Assembly: GCA_963716185.1 (NCBI GenBank)
Contig: OY970295.1
Span: forward strand, 1,080,356-1,144,355
Origin: Thermodesulfovibrionales bacterium
Lineage (GTDB): Bacteria; Nitrospirota; Thermodesulfovibrionia; Thermodesulfovibrionales; SM23-35
DNA length: 64,000 nt
Direction: 5' to 3'
Under the pieces are notes generated by a model. The model did no database searches and had not been told where the DNA came from. It worked only from the letters and a program-made list of their open reading frames with translations. Of the stretch, positions 44,413-46,991 are shown piece by piece (positions within the stretch are counted from its first letter, which is position 1; each line of letters begins with the position of its first letter). Position numbers and translations under genes: made by a program.

Positions 44413-44607
44413 TCAAAATCTTCTATACTTCTGCGCCTTCGCCCTTGTCTTGCGTGCCTCTGCGCGTTTTCGTTTTTCCTTTACTGAAGGCTTTTCATGG
44501 AAACTTCTTCTCCTGACTTCTTTGAGGAGACCTTCAGTCTGAACTTTGCGCTTCAGAATTTTGATGGCTTTTTCTATATCATTATCGACTACTCTTATCT
44601 CTATGAT
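44413..44607 (-). CDS. rpsU: 30S ribosomal protein S21, no canonical start codon
   Basis: Reading frame ...TAA ATT ATC ATA GAG... gives (I)IEIRVVDNDIEKAIKILKRKVQTEGLLKEVRRRSFHEKPSVKEKRKRAEARKTRAKAQKYRRF*, a clear S21. There is no in-frame ATG/GTG/TTG anywhere in the ORF. ATC 44607 lies 7 nt behind the GGAG core of AGGAGA. In frame with rbp, separated by one TAA. Confidence 0.75.
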   Translation of the reverse strand: MIEIRVVDNDIEKAIKILKRKVQTEGLLKEVRRRSFHEKPSVKEKRKRAEARKTRAKAQKYRRF

Positions 44608-44610
44608 AAT

Positions 44611-44943
44611 TTATCTCCTGTCCCTTCCGTAACCTGATCCTCTTCCCTGGCCGTACCCTCCTCTGCCTCCGCCGAATCCTCGCCCATCCCTTGGCTGCTG
44701 CGGTCTTGCCTCATTAACGGTCAAAGAACGCTCCATAAATTTTGTGCCGTTTAATTGTTCTATGGCTTTTTTAGCGTCCTCCGCGGATGACATTTCAACA
44801 AAGCCAAAGCCTTTGGAACGCCCGGTGTCCGCATCGGTAATTATTTTTACCGACTCCACCTCTCCAATACTTGTGAAAAGATCTCGGAGCGATTCTTCTG
44901 TTGCATTGAACGGGATACTTCCTACATACAGTTTTTTGCCCAT
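44611..44943 (-). CDS. rbp: RRM-type RNA-binding protein with RGG tail
   Basis: 110 aa. KLYVGSIPFNATEESLRDLF (RNP2), KGFGFVEM (RNP1), C-terminal GRGFGGGRGGYGQGRGSGYGRDRR. Confidence 0.9.
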   Translation of the reverse strand: MGKKLYVGSIPFNATEESLRDLFTSIGEVESVKIITDADTGRSKGFGFVEMSSAEDAKKAIEQLNGTKFMERSLTVNEARPQQPRDGRGFGGGRGGYGQGRGSGYGRDRR

Positions 44944-45343
44944 AATTTAACACCTCTTGATAGAATAAAATTCCCTAACTCCTTAAAGCTTTGAGGCTTC
45001 TCTGACTTCAAAGGCAGGATGCTATACAATACCACTTCACGGCGTTAAAAAACAGAAGAAAATAAACATGCCTAATCCAACGCTTTCGTTCTTTTGGTAT
45101 TTGAAAAACTCGATAAGACTATAGAACTCCTGAAATCGTATAGCATGAAATCTTCAACATCCAATTTGTGCCTAACAAATAGAGCAAATAGAGGGTCGAA
45201 TCTTCATTATTCACACAAACGGAGGCGATAAGAACGGAAGGGTTTATAAACAGTTGCCGGCGTGCTGAGCCCGCATCGCGTCACCAACGTTTTTCGAACG
45301 AACCCGGTATCCCGCAGGGCCGCGTACTGCGATGAGGAAGAAT

Positions 45344-45715
45344 CTATGTATATTGTATGGCAACTTCGTAGACAATAGTCGAGTGGTTGGCAGAAGGAGA
45401 ATCACCTTCACAGCTGAGCTCTCCTTTGGCGGCCTCTTTGCGGTTTCTGATCATCCCGGTGATAACCTGACTGAGATCAAACCCGCCATCGACACATTCC
45501 TTGTTCAAGCAGTCTATCCTGAACAACGCATAACTGTCGGGAAAGAAATTGACAACCCGCGGCAATGGTTTCTGCACGCCCCTCTGATTGTACATCATGC
45601 TGATGGCAATGCCTGCAACCTCTGGAAATTGGGCATTCACGAAGCCCGCGTCGAGCTTCCGCTGCTGATTTTCTATCCTTGCTGCATTCCTTCTGCTGTT
45701 CATGGTGTTGTTCAC
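45344..45715 (-). CDS. hypothetical protein
   Basis: 123 aa. No recognised motif. An antisense ORF of similar size overlaps it, so coding status is uncertain. Confidence 0.35.
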   Translation of the reverse strand: MNNTMNSRRNAARIENQQRKLDAGFVNAQFPEVAGIAISMMYNQRGVQKPLPRVVNFFPDSYALFRIDCLNKECVDGGFDLSQVITGMIRNRKEAAKGELSCEGDSPSANHSTIVYEVAIQYT

Positions 45716-45770
45716 CTTCCCTCTCTAATGAGGAGGCCCCTCCACCAGGAAGAGGCCTTCTTCCTCTTAA

Positions 45771-45971
45771 TTACAGTTTAACGACATTGATCGCCCTGGG
45801 GCCTTTCGGGCCTTTTTCGGTATCAAAGCTGACCTTGTCACCCTCAGCAAGACTCTTAAAGCCATTACCCTGGATGGAAGTATGATGGACAAAAGCTTCA
45901 CTTCCGTCATCACTCGTGATGAATCCAAAACCTTTGCTGTCATTAAACCATTTCACAGTTCCTTGTTCCAT
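45771..45971 (-). CDS. cold-shock protein (CspA family)
   Basis: 66 aa. [15 protein letters not shown] (RNP1), FVHHTSI (RNP2). Confidence 0.95.
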
Positions 45972-46019
45972 TTCCTTTTCCCTCCTTATCTACAGACTCA
46001 AATCTCAGAAAGTCTCAAT

Positions 46020-46052
46020 AAAAAAAGCCACAAAGTCAAAAGTCTTTGTGGC
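46020..46052 (-). terminator. rho-independent terminator after infC
   Basis: Minus strand: GCCACAAAG-N8-CTTTGTGGC followed by TTTTTTT. Confidence 0.7.
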
Positions 46053-46131
46053 CTCATAAACTGCAAAAACTTCTAAAATTCTATGTATAGAATAGCACGG
46101 CCCTGTGTATTAAATCAAGGAAGAAATGGTG

Positions 46132-46677
46132 TCACGAAGCCCTGAGAATCATCACCATCTGGCGTCCGTCCATCTTTGGCTGCATTTCTACTTTTGCAAT
46201 ATCCTGCAGATCCAAGGCCAACCTGTTCAGAATAATAGTCCCCAGATCCTGACGACTGAATTCCCGTCCCCTGAACCGAATGGTCACTTTAACCTTGTCC
46301 CCATTATCTATGAACTTCCGCGCATTACGCTTTTTGAACTCATAATCGTGGGTATTGATCATCGGCCGCATCCTGATTTCTTTGAGGTTGAGAGTCGTTT
46401 GTTGTTTTTTGGCCTTCCGCTGTTTCTTGCCTTGCTCGAATTTGAACTTTTTGTAATCCATGATCTTACATACCGGTGGCTCAGCGTCCGGGCTGATTTC
46501 AACGAGATCCAAATCCCTCTCTTCGGCCATCTTCAACGCTGAATCGATATCCATTATGCCGATTTGCCCCTCATCGGCGACAACCCGTATCTCTTTTGCC
46601 TTGATCAGATGGATCTGGTTGTTTACTCGGGTCTTGTCGACAACCCTCCCTGGCGGTACTCGTCTTTGATTAACTAT
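46132..46677 (-). CDS. infC: translation initiation factor IF-3, non-canonical (AUA/AUC) start
   Basis: The track ORF (140 aa) is only the C-terminal part. The frame stays open upstream to TAA at 46701..46699 with no ATG/GTG/TTG. (M)VNQRRVPPGRVVDKTRVNNQIHLIKAKEIRVVADEGQIGIM... is the IF-3 N-domain. ATA 46677 lies 7 nt behind GGAGG. Confidence 0.85.
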   Translation of the reverse strand: MVNQRRVPPGRVVDKTRVNNQIHLIKAKEIRVVADEGQIGIMDIDSALKMAEERDLDLVEISPDAEPPVCKIMDYKKFKFEQGKKQRKAKKQQTTLNLKEIRMRPMINTHDYEFKKRNARKFIDNGDKVKVTIRFRGREFSRQDLGTIILNRLALDLQDIAKVEMQPKMDGRQMVMILRAS

Positions 46678-46991
46678 GATGTGTCCTCCTTTTTTCTCGG
46701 TGAGTTTTGCTTACGGCTTGCACGTCCAGTACGCACAATCACCATTTATTATAGTGTAGCACATTTAGACAATAAGACTATATTATTATAGAGAATAGTC
46801 TCTTTGAAAGAGGCCCGAAACCGGGATGGAAAAAACGGAAGGCAATTCTTCAAAAATCCTTAAACCCTCAATAGAAAAAAAGTGGAATATCGGGGAAGCT
46901 AACTCCGATAGACAACTTACACCACCAAATGCCTGCGACAAATTTCTCAGCGTACGAATTGCGCTTTCCGGGTCAAACCGAAACTGGAAAG

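What the first reader, a model, noticed from the sequence alone, without database searches (positions are those of the whole stretch)
44413..44943. rpsU (S21) has no canonical start codon and lies in frame with the upstream RRM gene, separated by a single UAA
Minus-strand reading: ...GGY GRD RR TAA ATT ATC ATA GAG ATA AGA GTA... An unmistakable S21 ORF follows the rbp stop codon directly and in the same frame. It contains no in-frame ATG, GTG or TTG along its 65 codons.

Two explanations are possible:
- S21 initiates at AUU/AUC/AUA. The GGAG core of AGGAGA lies 4, 7 and 10 nt upstream of these three codons respectively.
- It is made by stop-codon read-through or re-initiation, giving an Rbp-S21 fusion or a tightly coupled product.

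An rbp-rpsU pairing is known from cyanobacterial cold-shock operons, but this arrangement is not.
Basis: seen in the sequence. Interest (0 to 1): 0.65.

Follow-up and report, generated by a model that had tools for sequence, protein, structure and literature searches.

The report
S21 gene with near-cognate start
A ribosomal protein S21 gene in this Nitrospirota genome really has no normal start codon and most likely starts at AUC or AUA, a trait conserved in about 70 related sequences, which suggests regulated rather than erroneous translation.

Summary
On the minus strand the RRM gene (44943-44611) ends in TAA. ATT ATC ATA GAG follows in the same frame and opens a genuine S21 ORF (Pfam 2e-18) with no in-frame ATG, GTG or TTG.

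It is not an error. Three independent metagenome assemblies reproduce the junction. Seventy related loci, 17 of them species genomes of Thermodesulfovibrionales, keep 'AGGAGAT-AA-nnn-ATY-ATA-GAG'. The gene is under purifying selection (median dN/dS 0.11).

More distant relatives have TTG where the window has ATA.

A read-through fusion is not supported:
- One relative has the two genes out of frame, and another has two stop codons.
- Several relatives have lost rbp but keep the AUH start.
- TTG-type relatives use all three frames.

The best reading is Shine-Dalgarno-directed initiation at AUC (44607-05) and/or AUA (44604-02). Comparative data constrain both codons as AUN and do not say which is used.

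This S21 is a paralogue: at least five genomes also carry a TTG-started rpsU. In most relatives an IF3 gene that itself starts at AUA lies directly downstream. The window's own infC also starts at AUA. IF3-sensitive expression is a plausible inference but is untested.

I rate it a new member of a known kind, of moderate interest.

The parts
44611..44943 (-). rbp: 110-aa RRM protein with a Gly/Arg-rich tail, ATG start, TAA stop at 44613-44611
   Evidence: ORF list; Pfam RRM_1 1.6e-25; 56-96% identical homologues directly upstream of rpsU in most relatives
44614..44619 (-). Shine-Dalgarno AGGAGA for rpsU, formed by the last two rbp codons (AGG AGA)
   Evidence: Nearly invariant in 48 distinct junction sequences (positions -18..-13). 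Predicted pairing with a generic anti-SD is about -10.5 kcal/mol, the same as in TTG-type relatives
44608..44610 (-). ATT: spacer, not the start codon
   Evidence: This codon position is ATT, GCT, GTT, ACT, ACC, TCT, AGC or TAA in relatives, with 11/9/4 parsimony changes at its three bases
44605..44607 (-). ATC: candidate start codon, 7 nt after GGAG
   Evidence: The first two bases are invariant (0 changes in 67 loci). The third base is C48/T17/G1/A1. L083 has ATG here. L102 keeps an intact gene with ACA at the next codon
44602..44604 (-). ATA: candidate start codon, 10 nt after GGAG; positional homologue of the TTG start of paralogues and outgroups
   Evidence: TTG, ATG or GTG occupies this position in all 64 distinct canonical-type junctions. 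ATA is found in 64 of 67 ATH-type loci, with only 0/1/1 changes. It is the same codon as the infC start in the same genomes
44413..44607 (-). rpsU (bS21 paralogue), 63-64 codons plus TGA
   Evidence: Pfam S21 2e-18; median dN/dS 0.106 over 2060 pairs; forms one clade in the S21 tree
44944..45030 (-). Conserved rbp leader: -10-like TATAGC, two copies of a CTTTRAAG motif, and a decayed hairpin with a T-run
   Evidence: Alignment of 73 leaders. The hairpin is strong in TTG-type loci (median -15.5 kcal/mol) and weak in the window's subclade (-4.8). No Rfam match
46132..46690 (-). infC (IF3) with SD AGGAGG (46690-46685) and a near-cognate ATA start (46677-46675); no canonical start before the N-domain
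   Evidence: The open frame is closed by TAA at 46713-46711 and has no ATG, GTG or TTG until an internal Met. Pfam IF3_N and IF3_C both match. Orthologues read ACC ATA GTT with the same SD spacing
45344..45971 (-). csp (45971-45771, cold-shock domain) and a conserved 123-aa ORF (45715-45344), lying between infC and rbp
   Evidence: Pfam CSD 5.7e-28. The csp/orfX pair also flanks TTG-type rbp-rpsU loci. A terminator-like hairpin at 46055-46024 separates infC from csp

Best explanation
The rpsU gene encodes a bS21 paralogue. It is translated by ordinary Shine-Dalgarno-directed initiation with initiator tRNA at a near-cognate codon. That codon is AUC (44607-05), the adjacent AUA (44604-02), or both. 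It lies 7 or 10 nt downstream of an AGGAGA formed by the last two codons of rbp.

rbp and rpsU are probably co-transcribed from a promoter and leader upstream of rbp. The rbp stop codon lies 3-6 nt before the start, so terminating ribosomes may add some re-initiation. This is not required.

Shown:
- the sequence itself;
- its conservation;
- purifying selection on the gene;
- loss of the in-frame relation in one relative and of rbp itself in others;
- the paralogy of this S21.

Inferred:
- Because AUU, AUC and AUA are the codon class that IF3 rejects, synthesis of this S21 is kept low and should vary inversely with IF3 activity, as with infC.
- This fits the AUA start of infC in the window.
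- It also fits the AUA-started IF3 gene directly downstream of this rpsU in most relatives.
For: - The junction is confirmed in the window and in three independent assemblies.
- 70 ATH-type loci (48 distinct junctions), including 17 GTDB species genomes, keep AGGAGAT-AA-NNN-ATY-ATA-GAG.
- Parsimony changes on 67 loci are 11/9/4 at -9..-7, 0/0/9 at -6..-4 and 0/1/1 at -3..-1. Constraint therefore starts at the ATY codon, and both codons stay AUN.
- TTG sits at the ATA position in 55 of 64 distinct canonical-type junctions, behind the same GGAGATAA.
- Median dN/dS is 0.106, with dS up to saturation, so the gene has been expressed as protein for a long time.
- rbp-less loci (L008/L115, L011/L122/L123, L012, L117, L125) keep the SD, the AUH codons and an intact S21. 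L012 and L125 have no ORF ending at the junction and no canonical start in the open frame.
- L124 is out of frame with rbp, and L100 has TGA TAA.
- The TIR is unstructured (z = -0.26).
- An RNA contig from a relative spans the junction with the same letters.
- infC of the window and its relatives starts at ATA.
- An ATA start for infC was shown experimentally in F. johnsoniae, and AUU-based IF3 autoregulation is established in E. coli (PMC7797042).
- AUA performed like AUG and UUG in E. coli extracts, whereas AUU was poorer (PMC5499595).
Against: - There is no direct evidence of the protein N-terminus, of translation, or of any IF3 response.
- The data do not decide between AUC and AUA.
  - For AUC: the invariant A and U with a free third base, ATG in L083, and ACA at the next codon in the intact L102.
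  - For AUA: homology to the TTG start, identity with the infC start codon, and an unusually fixed third base.
  - Also for AUA: it changes to ACA in L102 together with the ATA of the linked infC.
- The SD is no stronger than in TTG-type relatives, so there is no visible compensation for a weak codon (p = 0.27).
- A weak start could simply set a low Rbp:S21 ratio without any IF3 sensing.
- The window itself lacks the downstream IF3 gene seen in relatives.
Confidence: 0.8

Rival explanations
1. Termination-reinitiation. S21 is made mainly by ribosomes that have just finished rbp at UAA. They stay on the mRNA through the SD and restart at the nearby AUC or AUA. De novo initiation at these weak codons would be negligible.
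For: - The rbp stop lies 3-6 nt before the candidate start codons, and the SD lies inside the last rbp codons.
- This apposition (stop 8-13 nt before the Glu codon) is kept in nearly all rbp-linked loci of both types, whatever the frame.
- Re-initiation in E. coli uses initiator tRNA and is sensitive to IF3 (PMC2268962).
Against: - At least five lineages have lost the RRM gene but keep the AUH start, the SD and an S21 under purifying selection (WIN vs L008, L011 and L012: dN/dS 0.05-0.11). L012 and L125 have no ORF ending at the junction.
- Some rbp-less loci keep short remnant ORFs (L011, 35 codons), so residual coupling cannot be excluded there.
Confidence: 0.12
2. Programmed read-through of the single UAA produces an Rbp-S21 fusion protein, from which S21 may or may not be released.
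For: The two ORFs are in frame and separated by one stop codon, both in the window and in 56 of 63 distinct ATH-type junctions.
Against: - L124 has a 1-nt deletion that puts rbp in frame +1 relative to S21, with both ORFs intact.
- L100 has two consecutive stops, TGA TAA.
- The rbp-less loci argue against it.
- TTG-type relatives place the rbp stop in frames 0, 1 or 2.
- No read-through signal or structure is present, and there is no Rfam match.
- The predominance of frame 0 inside the clade is explained by shared descent.
Confidence: 0.03
3. The gene is a decaying, no longer translated copy of rpsU, or the missing start is an assembly error.
For: A second, TTG-started rpsU exists in at least five genomes of the clade, so this copy could be dispensable. 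One relative, L140, has a disrupted S21 ORF.
Against: - Median dN/dS is 0.106 across 67 loci, with dS up to more than 1.
- ORFs are intact in all but L140.
- Three independent assemblies and 70 loci agree.
- Metatranscriptome contigs cover the gene in relatives.
Confidence: 0.03

Closest known systems
infC (IF3) near-cognate start codon and IF3 autoregulation (E. coli AUU; Flavobacterium johnsoniae AUA, PMC7797042)
   Same: A conserved AUH start codon behind a good Shine-Dalgarno sequence, with no canonical alternative, in a gene of the initiation machinery. The same AUA codon starts infC in this very window and in its relatives.
   Different: The gene here is a ribosomal protein paralogue, not IF3. 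No response to IF3 has been measured. Two adjacent AUN codons are conserved rather than one.
Streptomyces sigR GTC start codon repressed by IF3 (PMC5472188)
   Same: A non-infC gene whose non-canonical start codon places it under IF3 control. This is precedent for an IF3 'regulon' defined by start codons.
   Different: Different codon class, gene function and phylum. That case was shown experimentally; this one is only inferred.
Cold-regulated rbpA-rpsU operon of Anabaena variabilis and cspA-rpsU of Sinorhizobium meliloti (Sato 1994 and 1997, as cited in PMC4424878)
   Same: An RRM-protein gene directly upstream of rpsU on the same strand, with cold-shock genes beside it (csp is 0.8 kb upstream here).
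   Different: A different phylum (Nitrospirota). The SD is embedded in the rbp stop region, the start codons are TTG or AUH, and the module is duplicated. Cold induction was not tested here.
bS21 autoregulation through the rpsU Shine-Dalgarno in Flavobacteriia (PMC9976891, PMC7797042) and bS21 paralogues in Francisella (PMC9578407, PMC13374519)
   Same: rpsU is a gene with special translational control, and bS21 paralogues act as a source of ribosome heterogeneity.
   Different: Those systems work through anti-SD sequestration or mRNA leader and stability, with normal start codons. Here the distinguishing feature is the start codon.

Membership tests
Ribosomal protein bS21 (Pfam PF01165) | Sequence matches the family profile above the curated threshold over its full length | tested here: met
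   66.3 bits against a cut-off of 27, E 2e-18, profile positions 1-54 of 55. The EKPSVKEKRKR core is invariant in the alignment with named S21 proteins.
Ribosomal protein bS21 (Pfam PF01165) | The protein is incorporated into the 30S subunit | not testable with these tools
   Only purifying selection (dN/dS 0.106) speaks for a functional protein.
Genes initiated at IF3-discriminated near-cognate codons (infC type) | AUU, AUC or AUA at the position of the start, behind an SD, with no canonical start codon available | tested here: met
   In L012 the whole open frame upstream also lacks ATG, GTG and TTG.
Genes initiated at IF3-discriminated near-cognate codons (infC type) | The near-cognate codon is conserved among relatives rather than being a sporadic mutation | tested here: met
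   70 loci, forming one clade. A and U are invariant at both candidate codons.
Genes initiated at IF3-discriminated near-cognate codons (infC type) | Expression falls when IF3 rises and increases in IF3 fidelity mutants | not testable with these tools
   Only circumstantial: infC with an AUA start lies in the same window, and an AUA-started IF3 gene lies directly downstream of this rpsU in 53 relatives.
Programmed stop-codon read-through fusion | The downstream ORF is kept in frame with the upstream ORF across relatives | tested here: not met
   L124 is in frame +1. TTG-type loci use frames 0, 1 and 2. L100 has two stops.
Programmed stop-codon read-through fusion | The downstream product depends on the presence of the upstream ORF | tested here: not met
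   rbp is lost in L008/L115, L011/L122/L123, L012, L117 and L125, while S21 stays intact.
Translationally coupled gene pair (termination-reinitiation) | The upstream stop lies within a few nucleotides of the downstream start, with the SD inside the upstream coding region | tested here: met
   UAA lies 3 nt before AUC and 6 nt before AUA. AGGAGA is formed by the last two rbp codons.
Translationally coupled gene pair (termination-reinitiation) | Downstream translation requires upstream translation | tested here: inconclusive
   The rbp-less loci show coupling is not obligatory in those lineages. Nothing can be said for the window itself.
Cold-regulated rbp-rpsU operon (cyanobacterial type) | An RRM gene and rpsU are adjacent, on the same strand and co-transcribed | tested here: inconclusive
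   Adjacency is met. No promoter or terminator fits in the 0-6 nt gap. One RNA contig from a relative spans 44591-44804. There are no reads from this organism.
Cold-regulated rbp-rpsU operon (cyanobacterial type) | Induction at low temperature | not testable with these tools
   Only the neighbouring csp gene and a weak cspA-thermoregulator-like match, 37 bits against a gathering score of 78.

The most novel reading that the evidence does not exclude
A subclade of Thermodesulfovibrionales carries a duplicated 'alternative initiation module': an RRM protein, a bS21 paralogue and an IF3 paralogue.

Both the bS21 and the IF3 copies are gated by IF3-rejected near-cognate start codons, AUY/AUA and AUA. 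[quoted passage not shown]

This would be a start-codon-defined IF3 regulon that remodels ribosomes, for instance in the cold.
Probability: 0.2. Interest if true: 0.75.

Novelty: new member of a known kind. Interest (0 to 1): 0.5.

Why it matters
Conserved AUU, AUC or AUA start codons are rare in bacteria. Outside infC they are almost never tied to a function.

Here a ribosomal protein paralogue has kept one across a whole clade, genomically linked to IF3 genes that use AUA. This gives a concrete, testable candidate for IF3 control extending beyond infC to ribosome composition.

There is also a practical consequence. Standard gene callers miss or truncate this gene: P0004, P0005, P0009, P0010, P0013, P0022, P0029 and P0037 are truncated calls. 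NCBI annotations disagree on the start (MIEI... versus MEI...). S21 can therefore appear absent or wrong in genome annotations of this lineage.

Tried and rejected
- **Exact-protein look-up of Rbp.** It is not on record.
- **Rfam.** There is no family at the junction or in the rbp leader. The only hit is a sub-threshold cspA-thermoregulator match upstream of csp.
- **RNA structure hiding the start.** The 121-nt fold is no better than shuffles (z = -0.26). The small hairpin -7..-2/+19..+24 shows no compensation: 5 CA against 1 CG at the only informative pair, and A:C mismatches are tolerated. I rejected it.
- **Stronger SD as compensation for a weak start.** There is no difference from TTG-type loci.
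- **ATT as the start.** I rejected it because that codon position is unconstrained and is TAA in L100.
- **Both IF3 types in one assembly.** Seven look-ups gave six assemblies, none shared with my rpsU loci. IF3 paralogy therefore rests on tree incongruence only.
- **Metatranscriptome runs.** They held only contigs of relatives. They are useful for presence but not for 5' ends or expression.
- **Sato 1997 (PMC179648).** It could not be opened. The cyanobacterial operon is cited second-hand from PMC4424878.

Full report
**1.

Read on the minus strand, the window has an ATG-started ORF of 110 codons, 44943-44614, ending ...GGY GRD RR. It stops at TAA (44613-44611). ATT ATC ATA GAG ATA AGA GTA follows in the same frame and runs to TGA at 44415-44413.

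The first ORF is an RRM protein (PF00076, 1.6e-25). The second is an unmistakable S21 (PF01165, 2e-18, 66 bits against a cut-off of 27). The start of the profile aligns to the Glu codon that follows the three Ile codons.

None of the 65 codons is ATG, GTG or TTG.

Contigs assembled independently from three metagenomes (X1-X3) cover 44597-44623 without any difference at 44602-44613. The nearest variant, 44596, is a synonymous ATA>ATT change in the next Ile codon. X3 and X4 also support the window's sequence downstream of rpsU.

**2. Who carries it.**

The closest S21 proteins are from Thermodesulfovibrionales (Nitrospirota) MAGs. Many database entries are truncated at internal GTG or TTG codons (P0004, P0005, P0009, P0010, P0013, P0022, P0029, P0037). 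NCBI entries begin either MIEI... or MEI.... Annotators have therefore already had to choose a non-canonical start, and they chose inconsistently.

I fetched 80 loci from species-representative genomes and 62 from metagenomes, then aligned every junction on the Glu codon.

**3. The junction is a conserved feature of one clade.**

Seventy loci, comprising 48 distinct 60-mers and including 17 species genomes, read aGGAGAT-AA-NNN-ATY-ATA-GAG. They form a single clade in an S21 tree.

In the remaining 68 loci (Nitrospirota, plus some Desulfobacterota and Poribacteria), the codon before the Glu/Asp codon is a canonical start. It is TTG in 55 of 64 distinct sequences and otherwise ATG or GTG. The same GGAGATAA lies upstream of it.

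The window's ATA therefore sits exactly where relatives have their TTG start.

The AUH-type genes are under strong purifying selection. Median dN/dS is 0.106 over 2060 pairs, with dS ranging up to saturation. This is an old, maintained state of an expressed gene. It is neither an error nor a pseudogene.

**4. It is not a read-through fusion.**

- The in-frame relation is common (56 of 63 distinct junctions) but not required.
- L124 has a 1-nt deletion that places the rbp stop in another frame, with both genes intact. L100 has TGA TAA.
- TTG-type loci have the rbp stop in frames 0, 1 or 2.
- Several lineages have lost rbp altogether.
  - In L011/L122/L123 the rbp leader is fused to the last few rbp codons.
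  - In L012 the TAA has become TAT. The frame is open upstream without any ATG, GTG or TTG, and no ORF ends at the junction.
  - L125 and L008/L115 are similar.
- All of these keep the SD, the two AUN codons and an intact S21, with dN/dS of 0.05-0.11 against the window where it could be computed.

S21 can therefore be made without Rbp being translated in front of it. In the rbp-linked loci, the stop lies 3-6 nt before the start and the SD lies in the last rbp codons. Some re-initiation is therefore plausible, but it is not the essential mechanism.

**5. Which codon is the start?**

Parsimony counts on 67 loci are 11/9/4 changes at the three bases of the ATT codon, 0/0/9 at the ATC codon and 0/1/1 at the ATA codon. 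ATT is excluded: that position is also GCT, GTT, ACC, TCT or TAA in relatives.

For ATC:
- Constraint begins exactly there, and the third base takes all four letters (C48, T17, A1, G1), as expected of an AUN start.
- One contig nested among ATC sequences has ATG (L083 = P0001).
- The intact gene of L102 has ACA at the next codon.
- The spacing of 7 nt is classical.

For ATA:
- It is the positional homologue of the TTG start, with the same 10-nt spacing that the TTG genes use.
- It is the codon that starts infC in these same genomes.
- Its third base is far more fixed (1 change) than in the other Ile codons of the gene (4-8 changes).
- In L102, the only intact locus where it has become ACA, the ATA of the neighbouring infC has also become ACA. 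That infC has acquired a new AGGAGA and a TTG seven codons downstream.
- In E. coli extracts an AUA mRNA behaved like AUG and UUG mRNAs, whereas AUU was poorer (PMC5499595).

Both codons look selected as AUN. I regard a tandem pair of near-cognate starts as the most economical description, and I cannot say which one is used more.

No local RNA structure explains the conservation. The fold is no better than shuffles. The one small hairpin involving AUCAUA shows no compensatory change.

**6. Context: a paralogue, and a link to IF3.**

Five assemblies hold both an AUH-type and a TTG-type rpsU:
- CAVRZG01: L001 and L049
- VGWX01: L004 and L075
- PEUB01: L006 and L063
- JBFMDL01: L014 and L032
- CAYFQB01: L015 and L022

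The two proteins are 61-68% identical. The AUH-type gene is thus a second bS21, usually with its own rbp.

In 53 of the AUH-type loci, a full-length IF3 gene lies about 100-160 nt downstream on the same strand (12 nt in three loci). No terminator-like site separates it in L004. Its start is ATA, preceded by AAAAGGAGG and often by an in-frame TAA two codons earlier.

The window is arranged differently. The order on the minus strand is tRNA-Ala, infC, a terminator, csp, a conserved 123-aa ORF, rbp and rpsU. A convergent zinc-ribbon gene lies after rpsU.

The window's infC also lacks a canonical start. The frame is closed by TAA ten codons upstream, and AGGAGG-ACACATC-ATA leads into the conserved N-terminus. 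Orthologues read ACC ATA with the same spacing.

In an IF3 tree, the window's IF3 falls in a broad clade. Members of that clade are 81-95% identical to it and include a Dissulfurispiraceae protein at 86%. The rpsU-linked IF3s form a separate clade, 70-79% identical to the window's IF3. Yet the rbp and S21 genes of those same loci are 85-96% identical to the window's.

That incongruence suggests the rpsU-linked IF3 is a paralogue. I could not find both IF3 types in one assembly, so this remains an inference. L134 is an exception that I cannot explain.

**7. How it most likely works.**

- **Shown:** an SD-preceded, unstructured initiation region with only near-cognate AUN codons, conserved and translated into a constrained protein.
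- **From established knowledge:** AUU, AUC and AUA form the class of codons that IF3 discriminates against, and this is the basis of infC autoregulation (PMC7797042, PMC5499595). IF3 also represses the non-canonical start of Streptomyces sigR (PMC5472188).
- **Inferred:** synthesis of this bS21 paralogue is throttled by IF3 and rises when IF3 is limiting or fidelity is relaxed. It would therefore track infC, to which it is genomically linked.

A plainer alternative is that the weak start only sets a low S21:Rbp ratio from a shared mRNA. The rbp/csp neighbourhood recalls the cold-regulated rbpA-rpsU operon of Anabaena and cspA-rpsU of Sinorhizobium (cited in PMC4424878). Temperature control was not testable here.

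**8. Novelty.**

Full-text searches found work on the following, but nothing on a non-canonical start codon of rpsU:
- bS21 autoregulation through the SD in Flavobacteriia;
- bS21 paralogues in Francisella;
- near-cognate starts of infC and a few other genes.

The kind of feature is known. This gene, its clade-wide conservation, the tandem AUN arrangement and the linkage to AUA-started IF3 genes are new instances. I rate it a new member of a known kind, with moderate interest.

Noticed in passing
window 46132-46690 (minus strand): infC has no canonical start codon. AGGAGG (46690-85) is followed 7 nt later by ATA (46677-75), which opens the conserved IF3 N-terminus. Gene callers either start at the internal Met (46554) or, in orthologues, at an unrelated upstream ATG.
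   Followed up: yes
L001-L015 and L081-L133, about 100-160 nt after the rpsU stop (e.g. L004 2815-3354): In 53 relatives a full-length IF3 gene with an ATA start follows the AUH-type rpsU. It forms its own clade, 70-79% identical to the window's IF3, so it is probably an IF3 paralogue. The window lacks it at this position. L134 is an exception, carrying a window-type IF3 behind a paralogue-type leader.
   Followed up: partly
window 44944-45030 (minus strand); the same region in about 70 loci: A conserved leader lies upstream of rbp in both paralogous modules. It has a -10-like TATAGT, two copies of the palindromic motif CTTTAAAG, and a GC-rich hairpin followed by a T-run. The hairpin looks like an intrinsic terminator or attenuator, and its stems covary (CAGAGAC/GTCTCTG, CACAGC/GCTGTG, CCGGAGAC/GTCTCCGG). 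It is strong in TTG-type loci (median -15.5 kcal/mol) but decayed in the window's subclade (-4.8). There is no Rfam family for it.
   Followed up: partly
L016-L080 (TTG-type loci): rpsU of Nitrospirota and neighbouring phyla almost always starts with TTG (55 of 64 distinct junctions), behind a GGAG embedded in the end of rbp. This is a lineage-wide preference for a weak start on this gene.
   Followed up: partly
L102 1490-1500 and 1806-1835: In this one relative, the ATA before the S21 Glu codon and the ATA start of the linked infC have both become ACA. The infC has gained AGGAGA and TTG seven codons downstream, and the rpsU SD has become AGGAGG.
   Followed up: partly
window 45344-45715 (minus strand): A 123-aa ORF without any Pfam match lies between csp and rbp. 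Homologues (37-48% identical) sit next to csp beside many TTG-type rbp-rpsU loci, so it is a conserved unknown member of this neighbourhood.
   Followed up: no
L011, L122, L123 (upstream of rpsU): rbp has been removed by an internal deletion that joins its leader to its last few codons. This leaves rpsU as the first gene behind the leader.
   Followed up: yes
window 45729-46096 (minus strand): There is a sub-threshold match to the cspA thermoregulator model (37 bits, gathering score 78) over the csp 5' region and gene. A terminator-like hairpin at 46055-46024 lies between infC and csp.
   Followed up: no
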